IMG/VR virus record: IMGVR_UViG_3300035675_000004
Coordinates: 1 to 64,000 of that record
Direction: 5' to 3' (one strand)
Origin: a virus
Length of the DNA stretch: 64,000 nucleotides
Shown: one piece after another, positions 35,273-51,406 of the stretch
How the letters are laid out: each line of letters starts with the position of its first letter
Position numbering within the stretch: position 1 is the stretch's first letter
The notes under the pieces: generated by a model
What the model was told of the DNA's origin: nothing
The model's database searches: none
What the model saw: the letters and a program-made list of their open reading frames with translations, nothing else
Program-made: the position numbers and the translations under genes

Positions 35273-35881
35273 ATGAAGATGAAACTTATCACAGAGCTGA
35301 ACAGAGATGTTCGTATCGTGGTGGAGGAAAGTGATGACAAGGATAAGACTTTGTTCATTACTGGTATCTATAGCTCCGCCAATATCGAGAATAATAACAA
35401 GAGGAGATATCCTCGGTCTGTTCTCGAAAGAGAAATTGACAAAATTCTCAATAGGGTAAAAGACAGAACCCTATGGGGCGAATTGGGTCACCCACCTAAT
35501 CCCGAAGTCAATCCAGAAAGAATTGCCATCTTGACAGAAGAACTGGAATGGAAAGGCGATGATGTAATGGGTAGGTCAAAGGTTCTTGACACACCTATGG
35601 GAAATATTCTCAAGACACTTGTAAAAGAAGGAAGGATGGGAATTTCCAGTAGGGGTCTCGGCACAGTTGCTGAAAGCGGCGAAGTGAATGAGGACTTTAC
35701 TCTTATTACTTGGGATGCTGTCACAGACCCATCAAATAACCCCTCTTGGGTAGACGGTATCTATGAAGGACAGGAATTTGATGTTCCATACAGACCACGA
35801 TACACGATGCAACAGGCCCAGCAAGAGTATTATAAAAAAATCTGGCAGGTTCTTACTGACATTGAGAAGGGAATGAAATGA
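35273..35881 (+). CDS. gp21: Prohead core protease (T4 gp21-like)
   Basis: MKLITE, N.N.R.YP, GELGHP, GISSRGLG and D.V.DPS motifs. Confidence 0.95.
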   Translation: MKMKLITELNRDVRIVVEESDDKDKTLFITGIYSSANIENNNKRRYPRSVLEREIDKILNRVKDRTLWGELGHPPNPEVNPERIAILTEELEWKGDDVMGRSKVLDTPMGNILKTLVKEGRMGISSRGLGTVAESGEVNEDFTLITWDAVTDPSNNPSWVDGIYEGQEFDVPYRPRYTMQQAQQEYYKKIWQVLTDIEKGMK

Positions 35882-36075
35882 GAATAGATGAGCTGGTAGA
35901 GAAATATCTTTCTGAAGATGCGGCCACAGAGAAGTATCAAAATAGGGTTAAGCAATTAGAAAAGGTTATGAAATCTGCTAAAACTGATATTCAAAAATTA
36001 AATCTCAGATATGAAATCGACCTATTAAAAAAACAGATAGAAATTGCGAGGAAAAAAGAAAAGAGGACGAAGTAA
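35878..36075 (+). CDS. Small putative internal head protein
   Basis: MRIDELVEKYLSE leader; coupled start/stop. Confidence 0.65.
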   Translation: MRIDELVEKYLSEDAATEKYQNRVKQLEKVMKSAKTDIQKLNLRYEIDLLKKQIEIARKKEKRTK

Positions 36076-36551
36076 TGGAAAAAATAGACGATAAGATCAG
36101 TAGATTTTTGGGCGAAGAACTCGGCGAGTGTCCATTCAAAAAGACCGGCAAAAAGCGATTGAGAAAAAAGGCCAACGAGGTCAAAGTTTTTCTTGATCCA
36201 GAAGAAGAATACGATGTTACAGAAGCAAAAGAAAATCTCAAGGCGCTTATGAAAGCATTTGGCGGCCGCATGTATGCCGGCGATCCAGACACCGTAACTC
36301 TTTATCCATTCAAAACCGGCGACCATTGGGAAGTTGTTGTGTCAATCGAGGACTACGATCCAATATCATACGGTATTAATGTTTATATCGACAACGACTT
36401 AATTGGTATGAGCGGTTATTACTCAATAGAAACAGATGAAGTCGATATAAGAACAATCGAAACAATCGGCCGCGGCCAGAAAAAATTTTATGATGCCACA
36501 CAAATGCTACGCTACGAAGCTCAAAAAATAGGGAAACTGGACAATGGATAA
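36075..36551 (+). CDS. Putative internal head protein
   Basis: MEKIDDKISRFLGE leader. Confidence 0.65.
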   Translation: MEKIDDKISRFLGEELGECPFKKTGKKRLRKKANEVKVFLDPEEEYDVTEAKENLKALMKAFGGRMYAGDPDTVTLYPFKTGDHWEVVVSIEDYDPISYGINVYIDNDLIGMSGYYSIETDEVDIRTIETIGRGQKKFYDATQMLRYEAQKIGKLDNG

Positions 36552-36801
36552 TAAATTCAAGAAATATCTGATAACAGAAGGAAGCGCTCCCGTAGCATTG
36601 ATGAATATGCTTTCCGATATTAAAAAAATCGACAAGGATTTTGACAAGAACCTCAACTCCATCAAAGCAATGTGGAGAGATGGTGTGATTGCGGATGATG
36701 ACTACGAAAGCCTTGTAGACGCCTACAAACATATCGTAAAGGGATTGACGATCTTCGATGATATTTTAGATGGTACGGTAAAGACATTGAGGGGAAAGTA
36801 A
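36544..36801 (+). CDS. Small putative internal head protein
   Basis: MDNKFKKYLITE leader. Confidence 0.65.
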   Translation: MDNKFKKYLITEGSAPVALMNMLSDIKKIDKDFDKNLNSIKAMWRDGVIADDDYESLVDAYKHIVKGLTIFDDILDGTVKTLRGK

Positions 36802-37043
36802 TGGAGAATAAATTTAAAAAATATCTTACCGAAGTAGATTATACCCCCAAACCAATCAAAATTAATGATGAATTAGATAATACTACTATGGTCATTCAAA
36901 AGAATCCAAGCTCAAAAGAATGGAGGAGAGCCGTTCCACCCGAAATTATTTTAGTTTTATCCGTCAACGGCAAATTCTATTTAAGTCAGAAAGGATGGGA
37001 AAAATTTAAAAGAGAGATAGATGACTATATCAGGGAAAAATAA
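36801..37043 (+). CDS. Small putative internal head protein
   Basis: MENKFKKYLTE leader. Confidence 0.65.
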   Translation: MENKFKKYLTEVDYTPKPIKINDELDNTTMVIQKNPSSKEWRRAVPPEIILVLSVNGKFYLSQKGWEKFKREIDDYIREK

Positions 37044-37309
37044 TGGGAAAGATAGCCGAGATAATGGAAAGATATCTAATAGAAGATATCGAATATAGTC
37101 GAGCCTATAAAGAATGGCGTAAAGCTAAAGACGAATTGATAAAAATGAAAAAACGGGCCGACGGTTTATCTGGTGATGCTAAGAAAAAGGAGAATGAGAA
37201 AATAGAACAGCTTAAAAAGAAAGTTGCTAATTTAGCGAAGAAGAAAAATGCTGATGTATATTATAGTATCCGCTTAGATCAACCGATAGGAAGCAAGATG
37301 AAAAAATAA
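37043..37309 (+). CDS. Small putative internal head protein
   Basis: MGKIAEIMERYLIE leader. Confidence 0.65.
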   Translation: MGKIAEIMERYLIEDIEYSRAYKEWRKAKDELIKMKKRADGLSGDAKKKENEKIEQLKKKVANLAKKKNADVYYSIRLDQPIGSKMKK

Positions 37310-37455: not shown

Positions 37456-38430
37456 ATGTTTGAGGAAATCTTGAAGATGCTAGGCATCGAGAAACTTGAA
37501 GAAGCACAGATTACCTCTATCAAGGCAAAGCTCGAAGATATCGTTGATATCAAAGCCCGCGAAAAGTCAGACAGCCTGCTCAAAGAGCAGTCAGAAAAAC
37601 TTATCGAGGAGTATGAGGAGAAATTCGAGCAGTATAAATCGGATGTCACAGGAAAGTTTTCTAATTTCGTGGACTCCGTTCTTGAGGAGGAGCTCACGCT
37701 TCCAGAGAAAATTGTTGAGTTCGCTAAGAAAGGCGAGCTGTATGACGAAGTAATCTCAGCACTCAAAGTCAAAATGGCTATTGATGAGGGATTGCTCACA
37801 GAAGAAGTTAAGACACTTTTGAGAGAGGCAAGGGATGAAATCTTGAGCCTCAGAGATCAGCTGAATGAAGCCACAGGCGCAAAGATGTCTCTTGAAGAAG
37901 ATGCAAAGAAACTTGCAGCACATCTTTATTTGAGGCAGAAGTGTGACGGTTTGGTTGAATCACAGAGGAAAAGAGTTTTGGAAATCCTTGACGATCTTAC
38001 AACGAAAGATGAGATTGACAGAAAGTTTCAAATTGTTATTGATCACGTTCTAAAAGAGGACGATATTCCGGCTACACCGGCTGCTGACCCACACGATCAG
38101 AGACCGGATGATACGGATAAAGGCGATACCCCTGCACCCGCTGGTTTACCAAAGGGGTCAGAGGAGCCTGAAGCAGAAGCCAAAACCTTCCAATGCATTT
38201 GCACGAAGTGCGGCGCTCAATCATCTTCCAAGACAGCTTGTGCTACCACAGCGTGCCCAAGTTGCGGCGGGGGAATGAAAGACGATGAATCAGCTACACC
38301 AGCTGATGAGTCAGGACAAGGCCAGATGGAAATTGACGATCCAGACGGCAAACCAGTGCAGGAGAGTTTAACTCCGTTTGATAATGAAATTCAAAAGTAT
38401 GTCAAAATTCTGAAAGAGAACAGATTTTAG
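37456..38430 (+). CDS. gp22: Prohead core scaffold protein (gp22-like) with Cys-rich insertion
   Basis: Acidic coiled coil immediately upstream of the MCP; AGGAGG RBS. Confidence 0.8.
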   Translation: MFEEILKMLGIEKLEEAQITSIKAKLEDIVDIKAREKSDSLLKEQSEKLIEEYEEKFEQYKSDVTGKFSNFVDSVLEEELTLPEKIVEFAKKGELYDEVISALKVKMAIDEGLLTEEVKTLLREARDEILSLRDQLNEATGAKMSLEEDAKKLAAHLYLRQKCDGLVESQRKRVLEILDDLTTKDEIDRKFQIVIDHVLKEDDIPATPAADPHDQRPDDTDKGDTPAPAGLPKGSEEPEAEAKTFQCICTKCGAQSSSKTACATTACPSCGGGMKDDESATPADESGQGQMEIDDPDGKPVQESLTPFDNEIQKYVKILKENRF

Positions 38431-38451: not shown

Positions 38452-39618
38452 ATGAATACAAAGGATTTGGTAAAGAAATGGGAAGCCATTCTTAATGAAG
38501 GCAGAAAGTTCAAATCTAAGAAAGTTCAAAGAGCAACTGCTGTCATGCTTGAGAATGAGCATAAGTACCTTACCGAAACCGGCAACTATACTCAGACAGG
38601 TCTCAATAGGAATGACGGTTATGCAACATCTGGTGATTTTCATCAGATTGCCGTTCCTATGGTTAGACGAACATTTCCTGAGCTTGTAGCTCACGAAATC
38701 GTAGGCGTTCAGCCAATGACCGGTCCCGTAGGGCTGGCTTTCGCACTCAGGTTCAGAGCGGGTCAGACATATAACTCGGCTGCTAATACAGAGCTCGGTT
38801 ATAACACCATTGACACGACATACTCTGGATCTTACACGACATCCGCTGGTGAAGCTTATGGTTCTAATGTCACCGGTGATATCGGTCTGGGAATTGGAAC
38901 AGGCGTGGCCATCAACGAAGTCAATTTGACAATCGAGAAGGCACAGGTCGAAGCTAAGACCAGAAAACTCAGGAGCCGTTGGTCTCTTGAAGTCGCTCAG
39001 GATCTCAAGGCTATGCACGGTCTTGACCTTGAGGAAGAAATGATGGACATTCTCGCATATGAAATCACAGCTGAAATCGATCGTGAGATCGTAGACGCCG
39101 TGAATGCAATTGCGGAAGCATCAAGTTGGTCATACTCAACATCTGCAGACGGTAGGTGGGAATCTGAGAAATACAGAAACCTCTACAATGTAGTTGTTCG
39201 TAGAGCCAACGAGATCGCAATCGACACCCGTAGGGGCGCTGGTAACTTTGTTCTGGCTGCACCTTATGTTTGTGCCGCATTTGAAGGTCTATCAAGTTTC
39301 GTTATCCATCCAACGGATGGCGAAATTAATACATTGGTAGCTGGTGTTGCCAAAATGGGTTCTCTCGACGGCCGCATTGCGGTTTTCAGAGACACATTCG
39401 CTGCATCCGACTACATGACAGTTGGATATAAAGGCCCGTCAGAGTATGACGCAGGTATTATCTACCTCCCATACATTCAGCTGATGGTATCAAAGACGAT
39501 TTACGAGCAGTCATTCCATCCAACCGTAGGTTTGATGAGTAGATATGCTATCCATAATCATATCTTTGGTGCAAACCTTTACTACAAGAAGGTAACGATT
39601 ACCGGCTTGCCAACCTAA
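38452..39618 (+). CDS. gp23: Major capsid protein (T4 gp23-like)
   Basis: GVQPMTGPVGLAFALR, EVAQDLKAMHGLD, EITAEIDREI and GYKG.SEYDAG motifs. Confidence 0.97.
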   Translation: MNTKDLVKKWEAILNEGRKFKSKKVQRATAVMLENEHKYLTETGNYTQTGLNRNDGYATSGDFHQIAVPMVRRTFPELVAHEIVGVQPMTGPVGLAFALRFRAGQTYNSAANTELGYNTIDTTYSGSYTTSAGEAYGSNVTGDIGLGIGTGVAINEVNLTIEKAQVEAKTRKLRSRWSLEVAQDLKAMHGLDLEEEMMDILAYEITAEIDREIVDAVNAIAEASSWSYSTSADGRWESEKYRNLYNVVVRRANEIAIDTRRGAGNFVLAAPYVCAAFEGLSSFVIHPTDGEINTLVAGVAKMGSLDGRIAVFRDTFAASDYMTVGYKGPSEYDAGIIYLPYIQLMVSKTIYEQSFHPTVGLMSRYAIHNHIFGANLYYKKVTITGLPT

Positions 39619-39639
39619 TGTGGTTAATATAGTGTAATA

Positions 39640-39675
39640 AAAGACCCTCTGGAGCGCAGGTTCCAGAGGGTTTTT
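39640..39675 (+). terminator. Rho-independent terminator after MCP
   Basis: accctctgga...tccagagggt hairpin followed by a T run. Confidence 0.85.
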
Positions 39676-39705
39676 GTTTACTTTTAGACTAAATACTGGT
39701 ATAAT
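39676..39705 (+). promoter_or_regulatory. Sigma70/T4-early-like promoter with overlapping late-like ACTAAATA
   Basis: gTTTACT (39676-82), 17-bp spacer, TGg extended -10, TATAAT (39700-05). ACTAAATA at 39688-95. Confidence 0.6.
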
Positions 39706-39719
39706 AGTATAAGTGAGGG

Positions 39720-40244
39720 ATGACTATGCCTGTATTAGATAGAAAAGGATTAACTGAATTAATGGATATGGATCAGCTGCAACAGGATGTAATAGATGTG
39801 GCCGCTGAAACCGTATCTGTAACAGAGGATGAAGATGAAGCTGTACGCATCCTAAAACAGAATATTGAGAAGGCCAATGTACTTCTCGATAAATGTATTG
39901 CGGAAATGAATAACGGTAACTTTTCGGCCCGATTAGTCGAAGTTTCGAGCCTTTTAGTTAACTCAGTTACCACCGCGAGCGGGCAAATCCTTGCCCACCA
40001 AGACGCACAGCAAGGTTTACAAATCAAAGAAAGTATGATAAGATTAAAGTCAAAAGAAGTTCTCATTAGAGAGAAATATCTTAGCGGAAAAGAAGCTAAA
40101 GAGGGCTCCGGTACCAATCAACAACTTGTAATTACCGATAGAGAGACCATCCTGAAGTTTCTGCAAGACAAAAACGAAAAGAAAGAAGTCAAACAGGTTG
40201 TTTCAACACAACCAAGATTGGAGGACACTGATGATGCCAAGTGA
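39720..40244 (+). CDS. terS: Terminase small subunit (gp16-like)
   Basis: 'ARLVEVSSLLV' and 'NQQLVITDRETILKFL' resemble gp16 motifs; lies upstream of TerL. Confidence 0.7.
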   Translation: MTMPVLDRKGLTELMDMDQLQQDVIDVAAETVSVTEDEDEAVRILKQNIEKANVLLDKCIAEMNNGNFSARLVEVSSLLVNSVTTASGQILAHQDAQQGLQIKESMIRLKSKEVLIREKYLSGKEAKEGSGTNQQLVITDRETILKFLQDKNEKKEVKQVVSTQPRLEDTDDAK

Positions 40245-42189
40245 TTTTAGGTCTATTATTCTTGACCAAAGGAAAGAGAAGAAAGCTACGATGTGGGAAG
40301 GTACTTGTCTGGATTATCTCTACAGAGCGAAGGAAAATCCAGAGGTAGCAAATCTATCGCCGGGTCGTATTTACAATATGATTATGAAACACGGCGTAGA
40401 GGATGTTGATATTTCGTTCAAGACGAGAGGCTATGAGGATTTGGTCAGATACAAATTTTTCGATGGCAAGATTTTCGGAACCCTTGAGGCTCTGCATGAC
40501 ATTATGCGTTTCTTGAAAGCAGCGGCTCGCAGAACGGAAACTGGAAAGAGGATCCTTATTATGGTGGGTCCGGTTTCTTCTGGAAAGTCTACTATCGCTA
40601 ACCTTATCAAGAGAGGATTGGAGGCAGATGATACTCCAAGATATTCTGTCAAGGACTGCCCTATTCACGAAGAACCGCTACATCTTATTCCAAATGCGGA
40701 TAGGGAATACTGGGAGAAAGCTCTCGGTGTCAAGATAGAGGGAACACTTTGTCCTGTCTGCCAGCATATGATAGATGAGCAGTTTACGGACACTGATGGT
40801 CACATAAAGTGGGAAGAAGTTCCGGTTGTTCAGCTTCAGTTCAATGAACAGAAGCGAGTTGGTATTGGAACATTCCAACCATCCGATCCGAAGTCTCAGG
40901 ATATTTCTGAGCTCATCGGTCGTGTCAATATGTCCAAGATGACCCGCTACGGTGAGACAGACCCCCGCGCTTACCAGTTCAACGGTGAGTTGCAGGTTGC
41001 CAATGGTGGGTTGATTGAATACATCGAAATCTTGAAAGCGGATGTTAAATTCCACTATGTCTTGATTACGGCAGCACAGGAGCAGATGATTAAAGCTCCG
41101 GGCTTCCCTCAGATGTATATTGATACCCTTATTCTATCCCATACGAACCAGACGGAGTTCGACAGCTTCAAGGCTGAGAAAAAGAACGAAGCTCTGCATG
41201 ACAGGATGTACCCTATTATGGTTCCGTGGAACCTTCGTGTGGACGATGAAATCAAAATCTACGAGAAGATGATCCGTGAGAGTGACTTCCGGGATATCCA
41301 TATATCTCCTAACACCCTCAGAATTGCGGCTCAGTTTGCCGTGTTGACAAGGCTTGTTCCTTCGCCAAAGGTTTCTTCTCTTATTCAGAAGATGAAAATC
41401 TACAACGGTGAAATCAGCGAGGAAATGAAGAAGCAAGAGATTGATGTGAAGGCTCTCCGTCTGGAAGGGCGAGAGCAGGGTGAGGGAATGAAAGGTATTT
41501 CCCCACGATTTATCATCAACGCCTTGAATATTGCTCTTGGTATCAAAGAGGATAAGAAGTGTATCAATCCTATTGATATCATCAGAACGCTGAGGTCTAA
41601 CTTCCAGCATTCCATCGGTATCGCCGAGGAAGATGCTAAGCGTTATCTTGGCATCCTGATTGGTGAGAAAGAGAGCGTCAGAGCAGAGCTCACCGAAATG
41701 TCTAAGAAGGAAGTTAATATGTCCTTCCTGTCTGCTTATGAGGATCAGGCTCAGTCGTTGTTTGAGAATTACATCCGTAATGCTGAGGCGTTCTGCAAGA
41801 AAGAGAATGTTCTCGACAGCATTACTGGTGAGTATAGCACACCTGACGAAAAACTGATGAGGTCTATTGAGGAATACATCGGTGTTCCTGTTAATTCCAA
41901 ATCGGAGTTTCGTAATAATATATTCGTTTACAAATCATCCCAGCTGGAGAAACGCGAACTGTTTACCTTCAGAACATATGATCCATTGAGAATAGCCATC
42001 GAGAAAAAGCTGATGGCCGATCTCAAGAATGTGGTATCTTTGACTTTGGCTGACAAGACCGCAACGGATAAGAGGTCGCAGATGAAGCGCAAAACGGCAG
42101 TCAACAACCTTATCAAGAGGGGTTACTGTGAAGATTGTGCAAACATTCTTCTGAGCTTCGTCGGTGAAGTGCTTCGTAAAGAGGAGTAA
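40231..42189 (+). CDS. prkA: PrkA/YeaG AAA+ ATPase / serine kinase
   Basis: Walker A GPVSSGKS, CPIHEEPL, GIGTFQPSDPKSQDISEL, ANGGLIEYIE, NEALHDR and GISPRF motifs; GGAGG RBS. Confidence 0.93.
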   Translation: MMPSDFRSIILDQRKEKKATMWEGTCLDYLYRAKENPEVANLSPGRIYNMIMKHGVEDVDISFKTRGYEDLVRYKFFDGKIFGTLEALHDIMRFLKAAARRTETGKRILIMVGPVSSGKSTIANLIKRGLEADDTPRYSVKDCPIHEEPLHLIPNADREYWEKALGVKIEGTLCPVCQHMIDEQFTDTDGHIKWEEVPVVQLQFNEQKRVGIGTFQPSDPKSQDISELIGRVNMSKMTRYGETDPRAYQFNGELQVANGGLIEYIEILKADVKFHYVLITAAQEQMIKAPGFPQMYIDTLILSHTNQTEFDSFKAEKKNEALHDRMYPIMVPWNLRVDDEIKIYEKMIRESDFRDIHISPNTLRIAAQFAVLTRLVPSPKVSSLIQKMKIYNGEISEEMKKQEIDVKALRLEGREQGEGMKGISPRFIINALNIALGIKEDKKCINPIDIIRTLRSNFQHSIGIAEEDAKRYLGILIGEKESVRAELTEMSKKEVNMSFLSAYEDQAQSLFENYIRNAEAFCKKENVLDSITGEYSTPDEKLMRSIEEYIGVPVNSKSEFRNNIFVYKSSQLEKRELFTFRTYDPLRIAIEKKLMADLKNVVSLTLADKTATDKRSQMKRKTAVNNLIKRGYCEDCANILLSFVGEVLRKEE

Positions 42190-42190
42190 T

Positions 42191-42469
42191 ATGAGCAAGG
42201 AAATTGTGAAGGATAATGTTCAAAAAACCATTGAAGCATTTCTTTCCCACCATGCGAAAGAGTTATCATCTATAAGAGATAGGTTTATAACAGAGCTGGC
42301 CGCGGCCCTGAGAACAAAGGAAGCCGCCCAGCTCACCAACCTTGAGCTTACCGATATGGATGATAACATTACAGCATGGCTCAACTCGGAAGATAGGTTG
42401 AGGGAAATGAGTGTTTTATATGATGAATGGTATTATCCGTATATAGCAAAATATTTTAGAAAAGAATAG
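42191..42469 (+). CDS. Hypothetical protein inserted between prkA and yeaH
   Basis: GAGGAG RBS; ATG 2 nt after the prkA stop. Confidence 0.65.
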   Translation: MSKEIVKDNVQKTIEAFLSHHAKELSSIRDRFITELAAALRTKEAAQLTNLELTDMDDNITAWLNSEDRLREMSVLYDEWYYPYIAKYFRKE

Positions 42470-42478
42470 AGGACAATC

Positions 42479-43786
42479 ATGGGAGTTATTGTTCACGAAG
42501 ATTGGGATCTGTCGGCCAAAGGTATAAAAGATGCGGAACGACACCGTGAAAAAATTGACGATGTTATCCGCAAGAATATCAAAGATGTCATAGCCGAAGA
42601 AGCAATAATCACAAAAAAGCAGGGTCAGAAGATCCGAATACCTGTCCGTGGCCTGAAAGACTACAAGTTTATCTATGGTAGTACAGGTGCATCTGGCGGT
42701 GTAGGTCAGGGTAATGCCAAGGCCGGCGACCTTATTGCTCGAAGGAGCAAGAGGGGAAAGAAGGGTGATAACAAACCCGGAAATCAGCCCGGCGAAGAAT
42801 ATATGGAAACAGAAGTGAGCATTGATTATCTTATCGAATTGATGTTCGCTGATCTTGGATTGCCGTGGATTAAGGACAAGGAGCGAGCAGAGCAACTTGT
42901 TCCTAAAGGATGGAAGTTTGAGACCATATCCAAAGTAGGCATTCGACCCCGTGTTCACAAACATAGGACACTCAAAGAAACTATGAAGCGAATGGCGATG
43001 TATGCTGCCGAAATTATGTCTGATACAGAATGTGATGAGGGTGATGCATACCGTGCTCTTGTTATGGCCGAGGGTGATTTGAACAAGGCTATTGATATTG
43101 CTAAGAGGAAGGCGATTGATGCAAGTATTGATCCGTTCTCCATTTTTATTGAGGATGATGACCTTCGGTTCAAACAGATAGAAGAAGATTTTGAGATACA
43201 CAGCAACGCGGTTGTCTTGGCGATGATGGACACATCTGGTTCTATGACAAAGGAAAAGAAATATCTCGCGAGAGCGATGTTATTCTGGCTGGTTGAGTTT
43301 CTCAAGAAAACCTATAACAATGTCAGGATAAGATTTATCGTTCATACAACCGAAGCTAAACTGGTTGACGAGGAACACTTCTTCAAGCGTGGAGAGGACG
43401 GCGGAACATATTGTCATACCGCCATTGACCTTGCCAACGAATTGATTGAGAATGAATATCCTGTCAGTGAATGGAATGTCTATTGTGTTTACATTTCTGA
43501 CGGTGAAGATTTTTCAGCCGATGAAACAGTAAAGTCTGTAAAACAGATGCTGGAGAAGCAAATAAATATGCTTGGATATTGTGAGATAAGATTGAATGGT
43601 GAACATTACAGCTCCAGTAATCTACTCGATGCTTTCTTGAAAGAGAAGTCATTTTCATTCAAGACTAACACCGAGAACGGCACAAACTTTTACAGAGATG
43701 ACGAGAAACATTTTTTGATGAGCGTAATGAAAAGCAAAAAGGATGTATATCCTTGTTTGAGACATTTACTTTTTGAGAAAAAATAG
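42479..43786 (+). CDS. yeaH: YeaH/YhbH (DUF444) vWA-domain protein
   Basis: D.ERHREKI, DDLRFKQ, MMDTSGSM (MIDAS), GGT, YP..EWN.Y and SDGED motifs. Confidence 0.92.
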   Translation: MGVIVHEDWDLSAKGIKDAERHREKIDDVIRKNIKDVIAEEAIITKKQGQKIRIPVRGLKDYKFIYGSTGASGGVGQGNAKAGDLIARRSKRGKKGDNKPGNQPGEEYMETEVSIDYLIELMFADLGLPWIKDKERAEQLVPKGWKFETISKVGIRPRVHKHRTLKETMKRMAMYAAEIMSDTECDEGDAYRALVMAEGDLNKAIDIAKRKAIDASIDPFSIFIEDDDLRFKQIEEDFEIHSNAVVLAMMDTSGSMTKEKKYLARAMLFWLVEFLKKTYNNVRIRFIVHTTEAKLVDEEHFFKRGEDGGTYCHTAIDLANELIENEYPVSEWNVYCVYISDGEDFSADETVKSVKQMLEKQINMLGYCEIRLNGEHYSSSNLLDAFLKEKSFSFKTNTENGTNFYRDDEKHFLMSVMKSKKDVYPCLRHLLFEKK

Positions 43787-43794
43787 GTGCGGGA

Positions 43795-44037
43795 ATGAAG
43801 GTAACACAAAAAGATGTGAATATTGGTGATAATTTTATTGTAACAGAAGATCTATTTGTAATGGAAAAGCCCGGTGCCGCCCTTGATAGACACGGATATC
43901 TTCTTGAAGGTGATAGAGTCACTGTCACGAAAAGACCGAGAAGATATGATGAAATAAACTGTGTTGAGTTTGAATGTAAGGGGGATGTATTTTATTCATA
44001 CTGGATAGATTTTAGAAAGAGCACGGAAAGGGTGTAA
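43795..44037 (+). CDS. Hypothetical protein inserted between yeaH and spoVR
   Basis: 80-aa ORF that fills the gap. Confidence 0.6.
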   Translation: MKVTQKDVNIGDNFIVTEDLFVMEKPGAALDRHGYLLEGDRVTVTKRPRRYDEINCVEFECKGDVFYSYWIDFRKSTERV

Positions 44038-44039
44038 CA

Positions 44040-45635
44040 ATGAAGAAAGAAGAATACCAAAGGTTGATGAAAATCGAAGGAAAGATCGTCAAGCTGATGG
44101 AGGAATACGGTCTAAGGTGTTTGCCGGTTGAGTTTGATGTTATTCCGCCACAGAAGATGATGGAAATCCTTGCGTATAGAAGTCCTACCAATATCTCCAA
44201 CTGGAAATATGGTCGCGACTACGAAAGGCTGAGAACCATTTTTGACAAGGTTGATGCTGGATTGCCATACGAGCTGGTTATCAATGACAGCCCGGCGAGA
44301 GCATACTTGATGAACTCCAATACACTTTCTACACAGGTATTGGTTATGGCGCATGTTTATGCGCATGTCAACTTCTTTACAGAAAGCAGATGGTTCCAAA
44401 AATCGAGAAATGACATTATCGAAGTTATGGCTGAAGCTAATAAACGGTTTAACTATTACGAGAGATTGTATGGTCTCGATCAGGTTGAACGGATTGTTGA
44501 TGCTGGCCATGCGCTTCAATGGCATTCGTCACCGTTTGAGATGGAGACGGAGGACGAGAAACGAAAGAGAATTTTCGAGAGGGAACGTAAGACATTTATT
44601 CCATCGAAATCTGAATTTTCTGATGTTCTCCCAAAGGACAAGAGAAAGAAAATTATCTCTGATGTCGAGATGTATAACAACAAACTCTGGAAAACCCTTA
44701 TGGGTATGTCGCCTGTAGAGCCTACAGAAGATTTCTTGAGATTTATTATTGACAACTCGCAGGTTCTTGAAGATTGGGAAAAGGATATACTTGAGATTTT
44801 GAGGATAGAGGGTCAGTATTACTGGCCTCATATCAGAACAAAGTATATGAACGAAGGATGGGCTACATTTGTCCACGAAAGAATTATGAAGGTATTGTTT
44901 GACGAGGGATATCTCGATGCTACCGAGCACGGTGAATACGCCTACAATAACTCTCTTGTCAAAGGCACCAATAAACTTTCAATGAACCCCTATCTTGTAG
45001 GCTCTGAAATGTGGAAAGACATTAAGGAGAGATGGGATAAGGGAAGATACGGCACAGAATATGAAAACTGTACGGATCACAATGAGAGGGAAAAGTGGGA
45101 TACGAAGGAGATGGTCGGTGAGAAAAAGATACAGGAAGTTCTCAAATCCTATACTGATTGGTTCTTTATGCAGGACTTTCTCACGGTTGACCTTATAGAT
45201 AAGCTTGACCTGTATATCTATCAGATGGTCGAAACAGCCGGTTCTATAGACTATGTGAGGACAAAACACGAACGCAAAGAAGTCCGTGATTTGATAGTAA
45301 ACAGCTTTGCTCATAGTGGTGTTCCGAAAGTTGAAATCGTTGATGCCGGGAAATCCACCGGCGGCGGAATGATACTGGTTCACAGGTATAATAACATTCC
45401 GTTAGACCCGAAATATACCGAAGAAACATTGAAACACATTTGCAGATTGTGGGGCAGGCCTATTGCTCTCAAGACAGTAGTAAATGACAAGGAGCATATT
45501 TACACTGTTACAGATGAAGAAACAGCTGTGCAGCACAGTAATGCTCCGACGCCAGGTGCTAAAGCAGCCAAACTCTTTTATTTCAGACATTTGATTGATC
45601 TCAACCCCGTGGAAAACACGATCAATATCGAGTAG
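44040..45635 (+). CDS. spoVR: SpoVR/YcgB family protein
   Basis: W.YGRDY, YELVIN..P..AYLM..N, AHVYAH..FF, TKYMNEGWA and NPY..G motifs. Confidence 0.93.
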   Translation: MKKEEYQRLMKIEGKIVKLMEEYGLRCLPVEFDVIPPQKMMEILAYRSPTNISNWKYGRDYERLRTIFDKVDAGLPYELVINDSPARAYLMNSNTLSTQVLVMAHVYAHVNFFTESRWFQKSRNDIIEVMAEANKRFNYYERLYGLDQVERIVDAGHALQWHSSPFEMETEDEKRKRIFERERKTFIPSKSEFSDVLPKDKRKKIISDVEMYNNKLWKTLMGMSPVEPTEDFLRFIIDNSQVLEDWEKDILEILRIEGQYYWPHIRTKYMNEGWATFVHERIMKVLFDEGYLDATEHGEYAYNNSLVKGTNKLSMNPYLVGSEMWKDIKERWDKGRYGTEYENCTDHNEREKWDTKEMVGEKKIQEVLKSYTDWFFMQDFLTVDLIDKLDLYIYQMVETAGSIDYVRTKHERKEVRDLIVNSFAHSGVPKVEIVDAGKSTGGGMILVHRYNNIPLDPKYTEETLKHICRLWGRPIALKTVVNDKEHIYTVTDEETAVQHSNAPTPGAKAAKLFYFRHLIDLNPVENTINIE

Positions 45636-45658
45636 TCCACATTCTTTCTTTTCCGCGC

Positions 45659-45698
45659 TGGCCCCTGTGGGATTTCTTCTCACAGGGGCCATTTTTTT
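45659..45698 (+). terminator. Rho-independent terminator closing the prkA-yeaH-spoVR cassette
   Basis: tggcccctgtg...cacaggggcca hairpin followed by T7. Confidence 0.88.
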
Positions 45699-45736
45699 GC
45701 TTTCCAATCCATAAATAATGGAAAGGAGACAATATT

Positions 45737-45931
45737 ATGCCGTGGACAGTAGCAGATGTTGATAGACACAAAAAGGGTCTGTCAGCTGAACAAAAGAAAA
45801 AGTGGGTATCTATCGCCAATGCTGTTTTGAAAGATACTGGGGATGAAGGTAGAGCTATAAGGATAGCCAATAGTAAAGTGAATGAGGATGTAGACATTCT
45901 CAGTAAGATAGACGAGTTTCTATGCCAGTAA
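45737..45931 (+). CDS. Small ChaB/YdaT-like protein
   Basis: MPWT...L....KW.SIANA.L...DEGRAIRIAN; preceded by CATAAATA and an AGGAG RBS. Confidence 0.6.
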   Translation: MPWTVADVDRHKKGLSAEQKKKWVSIANAVLKDTGDEGRAIRIANSKVNEDVDILSKIDEFLCQ

Positions 45932-47469
45932 GATATGATACCTTCGTAAAAAGACCACTTGAAGAATTTCCATATTCGCCAGAGCAGGTTCAAGAGTTGC
46001 AGAAATGTTCTGTTGATATATGGTATTTCTTAAAGTATATAAAAATTGTTCATCCAGACAGGGGCCGCATTATATTTGAGCCCTATCCGTATCAGAAAAA
46101 AATCCTCAAAAAATTACAGCAGAATAGATTTGTTATTGGTCTCTGGGCTCGACAATCAGGTAAGAGCACTACAGTATGTGCGTATGCCTTGTGGTTTGCT
46201 ATCTTCAATTCTGACAAGGTTATCGGTATTGTGTCCAATAAACAAAATTCTGCGATGGACATTCTTAATAGACTGAAAATCATGTACGAGGAGCTTCCTG
46301 TTTGGTTGAAACCCGGTGTTTCTGAGTATTCAAAGACCTTTGTATACTTTGACAACGGTTCAAAGATAATGGTTTCTGCCACCAGCCCAGACGCTCTCAG
46401 AGGTAGAACCTTGAACCTTCTGATTATGGACGAGTTCGCCTTTGTTGCGAAAAACAAGGCCGAGGATTTCTGGTCATCCAACCAGCCGACGATTACCGCA
46501 TCAGAGGAGTCGCGTATTGTCATTATCAGTACGCCAAATGGTATGTTCAATTTGTTCCATCGTCTTTATTCTGGCGCGGAAAGAAAGGAAAACACATTCG
46601 TTCCAGTAAGAGCAACTTGGAAGGAAGTTCCGGGCCGTGACAGGAAATGGGCCGAAGAACAGAAACAGAACCTTGGCAAAATCAGGTTTGCTCAGGAGCA
46701 CGAATGTGAATTTCTCGGTTCTACCAATACTGTCATCGAGTCGGAGACAATAGAAAATCTTTATACACAAATAAAAGACCCAGTTCATACAGACCTGCAA
46801 GGTCGCCTCAAAATATACGAGAAACCGATAAAAGATTTCCAGTATGTTCTGGGCGTGGACACAGCCAAGGGAACGGGCGAGAATGGTTCTGGAATACAAA
46901 TTCTTAAAATAGCATCATCCAAGCCTATATCCTATGAGCAGGTAGCCGTCTTTTATCATACCCTCACCGATGTTTATACATTTTCTGATATTGTAAACAG
47001 ACTGTCTCTCTATTATAACAATGCTTATATTATGTGTGAGAACAATGCGGAAGGTTCAACCGTTGTCTCACGACTATGGTGGGATTTTGAGAACCCCGGC
47101 CTCATAAACAGTGGTAGTAAGAATGTAGACCTTGGCATCCGCGCCAAGAAAAATACGAAACCAAAGGCCGTTCTTCTCTGGAAAAAGCTGGTAGAGGATA
47201 CTTCCCTCAAAATTTGTGACAGGGATACGGTTGATCAAATAAGCACATTTATTGAAAAGGGCGGAAAATTTATGGGAAAAGATATGCCGGATGACCTTGT
47301 ATGTGCTATGTATTGGGCCACATTTATCGGTTCTATGAACATTTTGGAAGATAGTCCAGAGTTGAGAAAGTCAGTAGAGGACGATGATGAGGACGCATGG
47401 GGTATTTTGACCGATGTGCCGGCCTATGAGGAGAATTGGGATTGGCTTACCAAAATCAATCCTTTGTGA
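45922..47469 (+). CDS. terL: Terminase large subunit (gp17-like)
   Basis: ARQSGKST Walker A, LIMDEFAF Walker B, ISTPNG, QEHECEF, GVD and DDLV motifs. Confidence 0.96.
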   Translation: MPVRYDTFVKRPLEEFPYSPEQVQELQKCSVDIWYFLKYIKIVHPDRGRIIFEPYPYQKKILKKLQQNRFVIGLWARQSGKSTTVCAYALWFAIFNSDKVIGIVSNKQNSAMDILNRLKIMYEELPVWLKPGVSEYSKTFVYFDNGSKIMVSATSPDALRGRTLNLLIMDEFAFVAKNKAEDFWSSNQPTITASEESRIVIISTPNGMFNLFHRLYSGAERKENTFVPVRATWKEVPGRDRKWAEEQKQNLGKIRFAQEHECEFLGSTNTVIESETIENLYTQIKDPVHTDLQGRLKIYEKPIKDFQYVLGVDTAKGTGENGSGIQILKIASSKPISYEQVAVFYHTLTDVYTFSDIVNRLSLYYNNAYIMCENNAEGSTVVSRLWWDFENPGLINSGSKNVDLGIRAKKNTKPKAVLLWKKLVEDTSLKICDRDTVDQISTFIEKGGKFMGKDMPDDLVCAMYWATFIGSMNILEDSPELRKSVEDDDEDAWGILTDVPAYEENWDWLTKINPL

Positions 47470-49415: not shown

Positions 49416-49766
49416 ATGAGATTTGGAAAATATCTAACAGAATTTACAGATCCAGCTTTAAGAAACTTGGAGCAAAACGCTGAAAAAGAAGCGAAAGAGG
49501 AAGCCAAGAAACTGGAAAAGGCCTTCAGGGATAGAATAGATGATACAATGAAATCTCTGGATTGGTTTGCCAAGGAAACAATTAAACTGACACCTGATGT
49601 AAAGGAACAGGCAAAGGAGTTCAATGTTTTCGTGAGTAGGCTTATAGGATTTCAACAAGATACTATGTCTTGGAATTACTCATTTAAAATGTTGGATGAA
49701 TTGATAGACAATATCGAGGAGCACGCCAAATTTATCAGGAAAAAATATGGATGGTATGGAAAATGA
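49416..49766 (+). CDS. Putative internal head protein (paralog of 50296)
   Basis: MRFGKYLTE leader; ends HAKFIRKKYGWYGK. Confidence 0.65.
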   Translation: MRFGKYLTEFTDPALRNLEQNAEKEAKEEAKKLEKAFRDRIDDTMKSLDWFAKETIKLTPDVKEQAKEFNVFVSRLIGFQQDTMSWNYSFKMLDELIDNIEEHAKFIRKKYGWYGK

Positions 49767-50035
49767 AGGTAGATGAGAAGATAGAAAACTATTTGACAGA
49801 AATAATGCCGAGAGGGTTTGGCTATCAGATGGATAAAAAAGTGTTGAGAATTATAAAATATAGAGAAGTTAATGTTGAATGTTGTGGAACCTGTATGTAT
49901 TTTAAGGGAGAGGTTTGTAAAAATCCTGAAAATATTGCGACAGCAGCCGATGTTCTTGATACTGTAATTCCAGCATCTGCCGGATTATCTACCAGCGTAA
50001 ATGGTCTTTGCGAAGTTTATAAAAGGAGATGGTAA
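49763..50035 (+). CDS. Putative internal head protein, Cys-containing
   Basis: MKVDEKIENYLTE leader; CCGTC..F...C...C motif. Confidence 0.65.
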   Translation: MKVDEKIENYLTEIMPRGFGYQMDKKVLRIIKYREVNVECCGTCMYFKGEVCKNPENIATAADVLDTVIPASAGLSTSVNGLCEVYKRRW

Positions 50036-50296
50036 GTGAAAAGTATAGATGAGAAGATTGATATGTATCTTGGAGAGGGATATAAGGATGACCTGAAAGT
50101 TTTGAGGAACGCTGACAAGGCGCTCCAAAAAGCTCTACACGGTAACTATCCAGAACTCGACAAGATTGCAAAGGAAATGGCAAAAAGCGTTGCTATTGAT
50201 ATCAATAAAAAAACATCGGGTGTTGTATCTGATATGCCTTATAAAGCACAGTATGTCTTGGAAAAGCTGATTAGATTATTACAGGAGAAAGTATAA
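50036..50296 (+). CDS. Putative internal head protein
   Basis: MKSIDEKIDMYLGE leader. Confidence 0.65.
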   Translation: MKSIDEKIDMYLGEGYKDDLKVLRNADKALQKALHGNYPELDKIAKEMAKSVAIDINKKTSGVVSDMPYKAQYVLEKLIRLLQEKV

Positions 50297-50646
50297 TGGG
50301 AAAGATAGACGAAAAGATTGATATGTATTTGAATGAGGCTGTATCAGGTCAATTAGCCAGTCAACTCAGAGCCGCACAGAAAAGAGCCGACGATGCTTTC
50401 AAAGAAGGTGTCAGAAATACATTGAAAGCAATGGACGAATATGCAAAGGAAACCTGCGTTGATTTATACAAGGGTGACATACAGAAACAATCTGAATGCT
50501 TCGCCTCTTTTTATGCTAAGCTTATTATCTTTGTCCAAGACCAGTTCCAGCCCTATATGTCAGATGCATTGGTAAATGAGCTTGTAAGTGATATGGATGA
50601 GCACGCAAAAACTCTCAGAAAAAAATATGGATGGTATGGAAAATGA
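50296..50646 (+). CDS. Putative internal head protein (paralog of 49416)
   Basis: MGKIDEKIDMYLNE leader; ends HAKTLRKKYGWYGK. Confidence 0.65.
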   Translation: MGKIDEKIDMYLNEAVSGQLASQLRAAQKRADDAFKEGVRNTLKAMDEYAKETCVDLYKGDIQKQSECFASFYAKLIIFVQDQFQPYMSDALVNELVSDMDEHAKTLRKKYGWYGK

Positions 50647-51074
50647 AAAGGATAGATGAACGCTTAAGCGAATACCTTGATGAGAAAACATTAGATGTGT
50701 TTGCTAAACATCAGGTAGCCATTGCAAGAAAGACATTAAAAATGTCAGATGCTGGTGCAAAAATAATGGGCGGTATGAACAAAGAGGAGGCCAGAGCTGT
50801 TCTCAAGAAATATGGTCTGAAAGAAGAAGTTTTGACAGAAGGCCTCGGCCCAATCTTTCTAAAACAAGAGGGCCCAAATTTTACCAAAATTTATGTGAGC
50901 GGAAAGACATTATGGTTTTCTTATGAAACACTGGTTGCTTTTAGTGACGGAAGCAAAACCTATGCAACATCCGAAAAGTTTAGCAACACAACTTCCAGAC
51001 AAATGGGTACTATAGATGTGGATGTGTGGTTAGGCGATGATGATTTTCTAACACTTGCGAGGAAAAAATTATGA
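50643..51074 (+). CDS. Putative internal head protein
   Basis: MKRIDERLSEYLDE leader; second internal VLTE site; FSYET.VA...FS.TTSRQ motif. Confidence 0.65.
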   Translation: MKRIDERLSEYLDEKTLDVFAKHQVAIARKTLKMSDAGAKIMGGMNKEEARAVLKKYGLKEEVLTEGLGPIFLKQEGPNFTKIYVSGKTLWFSYETLVAFSDGSKTYATSEKFSNTTSRQMGTIDVDVWLGDDDFLTLARKKL

Positions 51075-51406
51075 CAGATATTATAGAAAGACTTGATTAT
51101 ATTTTGAAAGAGGATTATGTTGACAGGTTGGGGCAATCGAAGGTCATAAAATTTCTTGATCAAAATAAAAAGAAAACAGATCACTTCGGCGGAAATGTGA
51201 GAGTGTCCACTACTAATAAGCGATGGGCATTTGGATTAGGTGGCGGAACAGACCTTCATTTCATTCAGGCCGTCCTGACAGCAGACGGAAAGTGGAAAGT
51301 CAACTCCTCACAGGGTATAGCCAAGGTAACTAAGAATACTCTTACTGACGATGAGATGTTACAAAAAGTAAAAGCCATATTCGATAAATCAGGGGAGAAG
51401 AAATGA
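51071..51406 (+). CDS. Putative internal head protein
   Basis: MTDIIERLDYILKE leader. Confidence 0.65.
   Translation: MTDIIERLDYILKEDYVDRLGQSKVIKFLDQNKKKTDHFGGNVRVSTTNKRWAFGLGGGTDLHFIQAVLTADGKWKVNSSQGIAKVTKNTLTDDEMLQKVKAIFDKSGEKK

What the first reader, a model, noticed from the sequence alone, without database searches (positions are those of the whole stretch)
40231..45698. Complete prkA-yeaH-spoVR (AAA+/vWA/SpoVR) cassette inserted between small and large terminase genes
Seen: three intact genes with conserved motifs (GPVSSGKS; DTSGS MIDAS; HVYAH and NEGWA). prkA overlaps the terS end and a strong terminator closes the block. Established: yeaG-yeaH-ycgB (prkA-yhbH-spoVR) is a conserved bacterial/archaeal triad linked to nitrogen starvation, stationary phase and sporulation. 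AAA+/vWA pairs act as remodelling chaperones. Inference: the phage either manipulates host dormancy and stress state or has co-opted the machine for head assembly or packaging.
Basis: partly seen in the sequence, partly recalled or inferred. Interest (0 to 1): 0.8.

Follow-up and report, generated by a model that had tools for sequence, protein, structure and literature searches.

The report
Phage PrkA-YeaH-SpoVR trio between terminase genes
An uncultured large T4-like phage carries intact copies of a bacterial three-gene starvation module (PrkA, YeaH, SpoVR) between its two DNA-packaging genes. Most of its lineage has kept the module under strong selection, probably to break down host proteins, but such trios have been annotated in phages since 2006.

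Summary
prkA (40231-42189), yeaH/DUF444 (42479-43786) and spoVR (44040-45635) are intact, with all the quoted motifs. They lie between a T4 gp16-type small terminase gene (39720-40244) and terL (45922-47469), and a strong terminator closes the block.

This is not a chimera or a recent pick-up. Among related IMG/VR contigs, 40 of 51 with enough flank keep terS-prkA-yeaH-spoVR(-terL). PrkA is as conserved as the capsid protein. dN/dS is 0.03-0.05. Relatives carry inteins in PrkA and SpoVR. The phage clade is monophyletic and sister to a cellular subtype found mainly in Fibrobacterota.

Some relatives lack the trio. Several of these have a PIN-PhoH gene in the same slot, so the site is a cargo slot and the trio is accessory.

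The trio proteins lack the capsid-targeting leaders seen on neighbouring genes. YeaH is predicted to bind SpoVR, and the SpoVR model has a zincin-peptidase-like fold.

Best reading (about 45%): a phage-run copy of the YeaG/SpdA starvation proteolysis machine that recycles host protein. No function is shown.

Trios have been annotated in Thermus phages and in RsoM2USA. This scan has already noted the same layout in at least six other genomes. I class it as a new member of a known kind, of moderate interest.

The parts
38452..39618 (+). gp23-type major capsid protein (context: upstream neighbour of the unit)
   Evidence: Pfam Gp23 8.9e-100, phrog_138.
39640..39675 (+). Terminator-like hairpin after the capsid gene
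   Evidence: 16-pair stem followed by a T run. A similar hairpin stands upstream of terS in several relatives.
39677..39705 (+). Sigma-70-like promoter in front of terS (TTTACT-17-TATAAT with TG)
   Evidence: 10 of 12 consensus match. GTTTACA-N17-TATAAT-like sites occur at the same place in at least 10 of 17 relatives, by eye. Function not shown.
39720..40244 (+). terS, T4 gp16-type small terminase (174 aa)
   Evidence: Profile A1 vs PDB 3txs/3txq, E 0.004. 12 of 18 members hit phrog_445. AF2 gives a helical hairpin, H34-65 and H70-128. It lies directly upstream of prkA in 28 of the 29 related loci; the 29th, L032, begins inside prkA.
40231..42189 (+). prkA / yeaG / spdA homologue, AAA+ ATPase (652 aa from the ATG; a TTG at 40198 is the longest ORF start)
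   Evidence: AAA_PrkA 5e-111 and PrkA_C 1e-65. PDB 9xip 'Serine protein kinase' E 4e-124. Walker A GPVSSGKST and GGLIEYIE. Homologue alignments start at residues 8-16 of the TTG form.
42164..42469 (+). Small ORF (101 aa) between prkA and yeaH; doubtful or strain-specific
   Evidence: Only a sub-threshold DUF7842 hit. No tblastn match in any related locus.
42479..43786 (+). yeaH / yhbH homologue, DUF444 with a vWA/MIDAS domain (435 aa)
   Evidence: DUF444 4.5e-92. D251, S253, S255, T310 and D341 are invariant in A4. The N-terminal arm (residues 4-92) is predicted to bind SpoVR.
43795..44037 (+). Small ORF (80 aa) between yeaH and spoVR; variable
   Evidence: No family hit. tblastn match in only one relative, L010.
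44040..45635 (+). spoVR / ycgB homologue (531 aa)
   Evidence: SpoVR 5.9e-97 and SpoVR_C 9e-11. AF2 model pLDDT 80. Zincin-like fold matches, Z up to 10.7. H105, H109, E272 and H279 are invariant.
45659..45691 (+). Intrinsic terminator closing the terS-trio unit
   Evidence: 14-pair stem, 9 GC pairs, followed by TTTTTTT. Hairpins stand at the same place in most relatives, often holding a TATAAATA-like late-promoter motif.
45737..45931 (+). Small ORF (64 aa) with an RBS, overlapping the terL start; unknown
   Evidence: No Pfam hit. No tblastn match in relatives.
45922..47469 (+). terL, large terminase (context: downstream neighbour)
   Evidence: Terminase_6N 4.7e-22 and Terminase_6C; phrog_5989 and phrog_2.

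Best explanation
The block is a working, vertically inherited phage copy of the cellular PrkA(YeaG/SpdA)-YeaH-SpoVR(YcgB) module.

Origin and placement:
- It was taken up once, as a unit and in the cellular gene order, from a bacterium with the subtype now seen mainly in Fibrobacterota.
- This happened near the base of a large clade of uncultured T4-like-head myoviruses from wetland and freshwater samples, with contigs of up to about 270 kb.
- It sits in a cargo slot between terS and terL.
- It forms one unit with terS: a sigma-70-like promoter, overlapping terS/prkA genes and a terminator at each end.

Likely mechanism (inferred):
- The three proteins act in the cytoplasm of the infected cell as one ATP-driven protein-remodelling or degradation machine.
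- PrkA is the AAA+ motor.
- YeaH is a vWA/MIDAS adaptor whose N-terminal arm clamps SpoVR.
- SpoVR may be a zincin-like hydrolase.
- Together they switch on starvation-type bulk turnover of host proteins, which supplies amino acids and energy for virion synthesis in slow-growing hosts.

Shown here: gene integrity, layout, conservation, selection and phylogeny.

Inferred: complex formation, proteolysis, timing and benefit to the phage.
For: Integrity and motifs.

Lineage-wide layout:
- All 29 PrkA-anchored IMG/VR loci show these genes in the order scaffold-MCP-terS-prkA-yeaH-spoVR-terL, as far as each contig reaches.
- 40 of 51 MCP-anchored loci with at least 4.5 kb of flank have the trio.
- In two loci the whole terS-to-terL block is inverted as a unit.

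Conservation:
- Mean pairwise identity: PrkA 0.70, MCP 0.70, TerL 0.61.
- Mantel r for PrkA is 0.84 against MCP and 0.83 against TerL (0 of 2000 permutations reach these values).

Selection, pair L005-L006: dN/dS is 0.033 for PrkA, 0.046 for YeaH and 0.051 for SpoVR, against 0.068 for MCP.

Inteins with LAGLIDADG endonucleases interrupt PrkA and SpoVR at conserved motifs in relatives.

Phylogeny:
- The phage clade is monophyletic (100). It is sister (97) to a cellular clade of Fibrobacterota and three other MAGs.
- That clade has chromosomal context.

The N-termini align with the cellular proteins. They lack the (Y/F)LxE leaders carried by neighbouring small ORFs and MCP.

YeaH-SpoVR complex prediction: ipSAE 0.74, best of 3 controls 0.00. 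In the tool's calibration that mark was reached by 58 of 80 solved complexes and 2 of 110 mismatched pairs. The three runs agree in at least 84% of contacts, and partner pLDDT is at least 78.

SpoVR model: the best 39 wide-search matches are nearly all zincin peptidase domains, with Z up to 10.7.

Literature:
- yeaG deletion abolishes bulk starvation-induced protein degradation in E. coli (PMC13684143).
- yeaG, yeaH and ycgB are mutually cofit in six bacteria (10.1101/072470).
- B. subtilis PrkA shows ATP-dependent casein hydrolysis (PMC9512850).

Triad-less relatives carry PIN-PhoH, another starvation-linked ATPase, in the same slot.
Against: - There are no expression or functional data for any phage trio.
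- Purified B. anthracis PrkA had no protease activity (PMC13001217), so the proteolytic component is unknown.
- SpoVR has HVYAH, not HExxH. A profile comparison with one M1 peptidase gave nothing, and Foldseek found no PDB match.
- For helical models, Z values near 10 can be a common arrangement only (note).
- The cellular phenotypes of the trio differ between species (10.1101/072470), so a regulatory role is possible.
- The position next to packaging genes recurs in Thermus phages Lalka8 and YS40. This could point to a packaging-linked role.
- The tree is unrooted and built by the quick method without a mixture model, so the direction of transfer is assumed, not shown.
- The host is unknown.
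Confidence: 0.45

Rival explanations
1. Host stress or dormancy signalling. The phage trio acts as a regulator (a kinase-like or remodelling switch) that pushes the host into, or holds it out of, a stationary-phase-like state. It does not degrade bulk protein.
For: - The cellular module is tied to nitrogen starvation, RpoS, osmotic stress and sporulation, with species-specific phenotypes (10.1101/072470, PMC13001217).
- The PrkA C-terminal domain is kinase-like.
- B. anthracis PrkA alone lacks protease activity (PMC13001217).
- The conserved sigma-70-like promoter in front of terS-prkA would allow expression before the late genes.
Against: - Kinase activity of PrkA is disputed (PMC9512850).
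- The clearest genetic phenotype so far is bulk proteolysis (PMC13684143).
- Nothing in the phage copies differs from the cellular ones in a way that suggests a new regulatory target.
Confidence: 0.2
2. Head-assembly or DNA-packaging helper. The AAA+/vWA machine has been co-opted to remodel proheads, terminase or portal.
For: - The trio lies between terS and terL, overlaps terS, and moves with the terS-terL block when that block is inverted.
- In Thermus phage Lalka8 the trio lies between portal/minor head genes and terL. In YS40_Isch it lies within 4 kb of terL.
- AAA+/vWA pairs are known chaperones (general knowledge).
Against: - At least 5 changes of trio state are needed on the MCP tree. 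Nested relatives go from terS to terL without the trio (L146; L151 has terL nearby).
- A sister group has PIN-PhoH in the slot, and records of 164-171 kb hold no PrkA.
- In RsoM2USA the trio (ORF28-30) is about 140 kb from terL (ORF253) (PMC8504454).
- In MN1 and phiLo it lies among nucleotide-metabolism and other genes.
- The phage proteins have no additions relative to the cellular ones, and no capsid-targeting leader.
Confidence: 0.12
3. Targeted counter-defence or takeover. The machine removes particular host proteins (defence systems, nucleoid or transcription factors), rather than recycling the proteome.
For: - Phages often carry proteases or adaptors aimed at host factors (general knowledge).
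- The strong conservation and accessory distribution fit a conflict-related gene.
Against: - There is no evidence of fast evolution or diversifying selection. dN/dS is among the lowest in the module.
- The cellular machine is described as largely non-specific (PMC13684143).
Confidence: 0.1
4. Artefact: a chimeric assembly of phage and host DNA, or decaying passenger genes.
For: None found. The four runs that hold the stretch belong to one study and may be the source.
Against: - Logan contigs bridge MCP to the spoVR end (38452-45737) and yeaH to terL (43558-47469) at an even depth of about 9.
- The same order is seen in dozens of contigs from other metagenomes.
- GC content is continuous with the flanks.
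- All frames are intact and dN/dS is 0.03-0.05.
Confidence: 0.01

Closest known systems
Cellular prkA(yeaG/spdA)-yeaH(yhbH)-spoVR(ycgB) module, in the subtype found in Fibrobacterota MAGs
   Same: - Same three families, same gene order and full length, with the same conserved motifs.
- Identity to the phage proteins: PrkA 58-61%, YeaH 42-47%, SpoVR 36-39%.
- Sister clade in the PrkA tree.
   Different: - It is encoded by a virus, placed between terS and terL, and co-oriented and overlapping with terS.
- It has its own promoter and terminator frame.
- The cellular copies sit among ordinary metabolic genes.
Trios already annotated in cultured phages: Thermus phages phiYS40/TMA/YS40_Isch, phiLo, MN1 and Lalka8/27a/27b; Ralstonia jumbo phage RsoM2USA
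   Same: Phage-borne PrkA plus DUF444 plus SpoVR as neighbours. They are covered by PHROGs 22605, 19072 and 35217. Their function is untested there too (PMC8504454).
   Different: - PrkA is only 27-35% identical.
- They fall in separate places in the tree, which indicates separate acquisitions.
- The Thermus phages have the order yeaH-spoVR-prkA.
- RsoM2USA's trio is far from terL.
- The present clade is uncultured, large, and keeps the trio inside the terminase gene pair.
Phage PhoH-type starvation-linked ATPase genes (auxiliary 'host-like' genes)
   Same: A host-derived, starvation-associated ATPase carried by phages. In triad-less relatives a PIN-PhoH fusion occupies exactly the same terS-terL slot.
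   Different: It is an unrelated protein family and a single gene. There is no vWA or SpoVR partner.
FtsH/YME1-type AAA+ zinc metalloproteases (a working analogy only)
   Same: - An AAA+ clade III motor with a pore loop is reported for B. anthracis PrkA (PMC13001217).
- The SpoVR model has a zincin-like fold.
- A predicted YeaH-SpoVR complex would bring motor and candidate peptidase together.
   Different: - Motor and candidate peptidase are separate proteins.
- SpoVR lacks the HExxH glutamate.
- No sequence-level relation was found.
- No activity has been shown.
- This is not a membership claim.

Membership tests
PrkA / YeaG (SpdA) | AAA_PrkA (PF08298) and PrkA C-terminal (PF06798) domains above the curated cut-offs, full length | tested here: met
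   372 and 222 bits against cut-offs of 25. PDB 9xip E 3.8e-124 over residues 26-658.
PrkA / YeaG (SpdA) | Walker A and the acidic Walker B region conserved | tested here: met
   GPVSSGKST and GGLIEYIE. G113, P114, K119, S120, E263 and E266 are invariant, even against the Thermus and Ralstonia phage copies.
PrkA / YeaG (SpdA) | ATPase activity, and a requirement for starvation-induced protein degradation | not testable with these tools
   Known only for E. coli and Bacillus proteins (PMC13684143, PMC9512850, PMC13001217).
YeaH / YhbH (DUF444) | DUF444 domain above the cut-off, with a complete MIDAS (DxSxS...T...D) | tested here: met
   310 bits against a cut-off of 27. D251, S253, S255, T310 and D341 are invariant in 21 sequences.
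SpoVR / YcgB | SpoVR (PF04293) and SpoVR_C (PF24755) above the cut-offs, with conserved HxxxH and NEGWA | tested here: met
   325 and 42 bits. H105, H109, E272, G273 and A275 are invariant.
prkA-yeaH-spoVR operon | The three genes adjacent, on the same strand and in this order | tested here: met
   The order is the same in all 29 PrkA-anchored relatives as far as each contig reaches, and in the cellular sister clade.
T4 gp16-type small terminase (the 174-aa ORF) | Sequence relation to known TerS, and the central helical-hairpin oligomerisation domain | tested here: met
   - The single sequence has no hit.
- The family profile hits 3txs/3txq at E 0.004.
- 12 of 18 members hit phrog_445, best E 4e-6.
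- AF2 helices 34-65 and 70-128 have pLDDT above 80.
Support is moderate. DNA recognition was not tested.
Zincin (gluzincin) metallopeptidases, for SpoVR | Thermolysin-like catalytic fold: a beta sheet, then an active-site helix, then a glutamate helix | tested here: inconclusive
   - VIA-align wide: the best 39 matches are nearly all zincin domains, Z 6-10.7, with 165-200 residues aligned.
- Foldseek gave nothing.
- The tool warns that Z below about 13 can be generic for helical models.
Zincin (gluzincin) metallopeptidases, for SpoVR | HExxH motif with the catalytic glutamate | tested here: not met
   The motif is H-V-Y-A/G-H. H105 and H109 are invariant but no Glu follows the first His. SpoVR is therefore not filed as a zincin.
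Zincin (gluzincin) metallopeptidases, for SpoVR | Detectable profile similarity to a known zincin family | tested here: inconclusive
   hhalign of A3 against one M1 peptidase domain gave probability 5%. Only one target sequence was tried.
Capsid-targeted internal proteins (T4 IP-like cargo) | A short N-terminal leader ending in L-x-E, as on neighbouring ORFs and MCP | tested here: not met
   The PrkA, YeaH and SpoVR N-termini align residue for residue with the cellular homologues and carry no such leader. About 15 neighbouring small ORFs do carry one.

The most novel reading that the evidence does not exclude
The trio is a split ATP-dependent metalloprotease. PrkA is the AAA+ unfoldase, SpoVR is a non-canonical zincin-like peptidase, and YeaH is the vWA bridge that clamps SpoVR. 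Several unrelated phage lineages have captured it as a 'proteome-recycling' gene set. It would be the first virus-encoded programme for bulk degradation of host protein, the protein counterpart of host-DNA degradation by T4.
Probability: 0.25. Interest if true: 0.8.

Novelty: new member of a known kind. Interest (0 to 1): 0.5.

Why it matters
The YeaG-YeaH-YcgB module is among the most widespread bacterial gene trios without a known mechanism. It has only recently been tied to bulk protein degradation in starvation.

At least four phage lineages captured the whole trio. One large lineage keeps it as conserved as its capsid gene. Together these argue that the three proteins form one self-sufficient machine whose activity is useful in an infected cell.

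If the machine recycles host protein, that would be a new class of viral resource-acquisition gene. It would matter for phages of slow-growing bacteria in wetlands, sediments and hot springs.

The culturable Thermus and Ralstonia phages offer a simple genetic handle on the mechanism of the module.

Tried and rejected
- blastn of the block against 50,697 phage records gave no match.
- No tRNA genes were found in the window.
- RNA evidence: no RNA holder is listed among the public runs, so expression could not be examined.
- Foldseek of the SpoVR model against the PDB gave no match at E <= 0.001.
- hhalign of the SpoVR profile against one M1 peptidase gave no support.
- phmmer of YeaH and of SpoVR against PDB sequences gave no match.
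- PhoH was not found in the window's own record, which is only 46% complete.
- Literature:
  - No paper was found for PDB 9xip/9xiq/9xir.
  - The phiYS40 virion-proteome and time-course papers are not in the library.
  - A 'YeaG cryo-EM' search was swamped by author names.
  - No paper links SpoVR/YcgB to a peptidase.
- Rejected:
  - Chimeric assembly.
  - Relaxed selection.
  - Capsid cargo through the L-x-E leader.
  - An archaeal host suggested by 'Hodarchaeales' MAG labels on clade members. The contigs carry bacterial-type promoters and RBSs, and other clade members are binned under unrelated phyla.
- Not examined: Enterobacter phage LAU1, where YeaG lies at the very start of a 30.7-kb record.

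Full report
**What the window is.** The window is the first 64 kb of a 100,942-base IMG/VR virus record, which CheckV rates 46% complete. Nearly all genes are on the + strand. They include:
- portal, 30472-32163;
- a T4-like scaffold, 37456-38430;
- the gp23-type capsid protein, 38452-39618;
- the large terminase, 45922-47469;
- a head-tail adaptor;
- the tail sheath.

The T4-type late promoter word TATAAATA occurs 10 times against 3 expected, mostly in front of structural genes. Close PrkA relatives lie on contigs of up to 270 kb, so these are large phages. The runs that hold this DNA are wetland and freshwater metagenomes from one study.

- Pfam places 40198/40231-42189 in PrkA (both domains), 42479-43786 in DUF444/YeaH, and 44040-45635 in SpoVR plus SpoVR_C. 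All are far above the cut-offs.
- The quoted motifs are present.
- The five MIDAS residues of YeaH, and H105, H109 and E272 of SpoVR, are invariant across phage and cellular relatives.
- The real prkA start is probably the ATG at 40231, which overlaps the stop of the upstream 174-aa ORF.
- That ORF has no direct family hit. Its family profile, however, matches the solved small terminases of phage 44RR (E 0.004). Twelve of 18 members hit the PHROG for small terminase, and the model is the expected long helical hairpin. I accept it as a T4 gp16-type TerS with moderate support.

**The transcription frame.**
- A hairpin terminator follows the capsid gene.
- Next comes a sigma-70-like promoter (39677-39705).
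- The unit terS-prkA-yeaH-spoVR follows.
- A strong terminator at 45659-45691 closes the unit.
- A promoter of the form GTTTACA-N17-TATAAT recurs at that place in at least 10 of 17 relatives.
- The hairpin after spoVR often holds a TATAAATA-like motif just before terL.
- These are pattern matches, not evidence of timing.

**It is neither an artefact nor a recent passenger.**
- All 29 IMG/VR loci found through PrkA (65-83% identity) show the genes in the order scaffold-MCP-terS-prkA-yeaH-spoVR-terL, as far as each contig reaches.
- A second survey was anchored on the capsid protein. Of 51 loci with at least 4.5 kb downstream, 40 have the trio. In two of these the whole terS-to-terL block is inverted as a unit.
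- Logan contigs bridge both junctions at an even depth.
- PrkA is as conserved as the capsid protein: mean pairwise identity is 0.70 for each, against 0.61 for TerL.
- PrkA distances track those of MCP and TerL, with Mantel r of 0.84 and 0.83.
- In the closest unsaturated pair, dN/dS is 0.033 for PrkA, 0.046 for YeaH and 0.051 for SpoVR. MCP is 0.068 in the same pair.
- Relatives carry inteins with LAGLIDADG endonucleases in PrkA (one to three), in SpoVR (one or two) and in TerL. They are inserted at or beside conserved motifs such as the SQD and HTN sites of PrkA. Among the database representatives of PrkA, many are of intein-bearing length.

**Where it came from.**
- The nearest cellular PrkA proteins (58-61% identity) are in Fibrobacterota MAGs and three MAGs of unclear phylum. 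Chloroflexia follow at 46% and Bacillaceae at about 43%.
- YeaH and SpoVR show the same ranking.
- The Fibrobacterota copies are chromosomal. One lies among glycosyltransferase and carbamoyltransferase genes, and another sits at 3.16 Mb on a large contig.
- Twelve of 201 sampled genomes of that phylum have this subtype. One of the twelve, G197, is an unpublished genome.
- In an 84-row PrkA tree (quick method, LG+G4, unrooted), the 17 phage-clade rows form one group (support 100). That group is sister (97) to the 10 cellular rows.
- The other phage PrkAs fall in three other places: four Thermus phages; RsoM2USA with three huge uncultured phages; and one further huge phage.
- Eight of these nine phage loci show all three genes by tblastn. 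In L124, SpoVR was not detected with this query.
- The trio has therefore entered phages at least four times, each time as a whole. Transfer from cell to phage is assumed from the wide cellular distribution, not demonstrated.

**The slot is a cargo site, and the trio is accessory.**
- A group of relatives (capsid protein about 58-61% identical) has terS, then a single 395-aa PIN-PhoH fusion, then terL.
- The records holding two such relatives are 164 and 171 kb long (68-71% complete) and contain no PrkA.
- Inside the trio-bearing part of the capsid tree, L146 goes from terS through homing-endonuclease-like ORFs to an intein-bearing terL with no trio. L151 has terL 3.6 kb after the capsid gene.
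- At least five changes of trio state are needed on that tree. Absence within a 10-kb flank is not absence from the genome.
- This pattern, together with the trio lying 140 kb from terL in RsoM2USA (PMC8504454), argues against an essential packaging role.

**How it probably works.**
- The phage proteins align with the cellular ones from the first residues. They have no extra domains. They lack the (Y/F)LxE leaders that about 15 neighbouring small ORFs and the capsid protein carry. The trio proteins are therefore unlikely to be capsid cargo, and should act in the cytoplasm with the ancestral biochemistry.
- What is known of that biochemistry:
  - yeaG, yeaH and ycgB are each other's best cofitness partners in six bacteria (10.1101/072470).
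  - Deletion of yeaG abolishes bulk, largely non-specific, starvation-induced degradation of cytoplasmic protein in E. coli (PMC13684143).
  - B. subtilis PrkA hydrolysed casein in an ATP-dependent way (PMC9512850).
  - Highly purified B. anthracis PrkA did not. That study describes it as a clade III AAA+ protein with a pore loop (PMC13001217).
- Two results here bear on the missing activity:
  - The YeaH-SpoVR pair passes the complex test. The score is 0.74 and the best of three controls is 0.00. In the tool's calibration the mark was reached by 58 of 80 solved complexes and 2 of 110 mismatched pairs. The runs agree in at least 84% of contacts, and partner pLDDT is at least 78. The N-terminal arm of YeaH lies on the C-terminal domain of SpoVR. 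This is a model's confidence, not a measurement.
  - The SpoVR model (pLDDT 80) finds almost only zincin metallopeptidase catalytic domains in the wide structural search: DUF885, M1, M30, M3, M49, M9, M32, ACE and thermolysin, with Z from 6 to 10.7.
- In that model the invariant HxxxH lies on the helix that follows the beta strands. The invariant NEGWA lies at the start of a later helix, as in gluzincins.
- Against this, the catalytic Glu of HExxH is missing, Foldseek finds nothing, and one profile comparison failed. I therefore do not file SpoVR as a peptidase. I keep it as the most economical candidate for the hydrolytic part.

**Verdict.**
- The kind is already on record. Trios are annotated in Thermus phages from phiYS40 onwards and in RsoM2USA, and PHROGs has families for all three proteins.
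- This scan has noted the same terS-trio-terL layout in at least six other genomes, and its follow-up reports reach similar readings. I do not treat those notes as independent evidence.
- What this window adds is a well-documented member of a large uncultured lineage in which the trio is near-core.
- The study also adds the PIN-PhoH alternative in the same slot, the Fibrobacterota-type sister group, the absence of capsid leaders, and computational support for a YeaH-SpoVR complex.
- Function remains inferred.

Noticed in passing
L025:7991-11293, L030:6761-12400 (PrkA); L014:5497-8064, L024:5282-7978, L030:14611-18639 (SpoVR); L005:15167-17728, L018:11667-14543, L024:8025-11420, L026:16179-18776 (TerL): Inteins with LAGLIDADG homing endonucleases interrupt PrkA (up to three in one gene), SpoVR (up to two) and TerL in relatives of this phage. 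They sit at or beside conserved motifs, for example ...SDPK|SQD... of PrkA, with the C...HN|S hallmarks. The window's own genes are intein-free.
   Followed up: yes
window 35878-37309, 49416-51406, 52515-54858 (N-termini), and MCP 38452: About 15 small, otherwise unrelated ORFs begin with a short leader ending in (Y/F)L-x-E. Examples are KKYLTE, ERYLIE and NYLTE. The capsid protein has ILNE. This resembles T4 capsid-targeting and prohead-protease sites.
   Followed up: partly
L200:12811-13998, L182:12654-13838: In trio-less relatives, the slot between terS and terL holds a 395-aa PIN-PhoH fusion (PhoH 3e-44, PIN_4 4e-19).
   Followed up: partly
L174 and L178 (downstream of MCP): The whole block terS-prkA-yeaH-spoVR-terL is inverted relative to the capsid gene. 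It behaves as one movable module.
   Followed up: no
window 24088, 29172, 34459, 37377, 47478, 56190, 56199 and others: The T4-type late promoter word TATAAATA occurs 10 times against 3 expected. Nine are on the + strand, mostly just upstream of structural genes. terS instead has a sigma-70-like site.
   Followed up: partly
P0116, P0124; L034, L036: Proteins and contigs of this phage clade are filed in public MAGs under unrelated names: Candidatus Hodarchaeales, Pirellulales and Sulfurovum. These are most likely phage contigs binned by mistake.
   Followed up: no
L035:1-13941: A clade-type trio (PrkA 67% identical) sits on a 26-kb MAG contig with a different neighbourhood: M24 peptidase, a PAS/GAF sensor and Rad52, with no MCP or TerL within reach. 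This may be another arrangement in a related large phage.
   Followed up: partly
window 45737-45931: A 64-aa ORF with a good RBS overlaps the terL start. It has no family hit and no counterpart in relatives.
   Followed up: partly
PDB 9xip, 9xiq, 9xir: A solved 692-residue 'Serine protein kinase' (30 chains in 3 entries) matches the phage PrkA at E 4e-124. No paper describing it is in the library.
   Followed up: partly
window 2343-11498 and 13359-15491: A 3051-aa ORF and a 710-aa ORF. The 710-aa ORF has collagen-like tail-fibre matches in PHROGs. These are very long fibre genes upstream of the head module.
   Followed up: no
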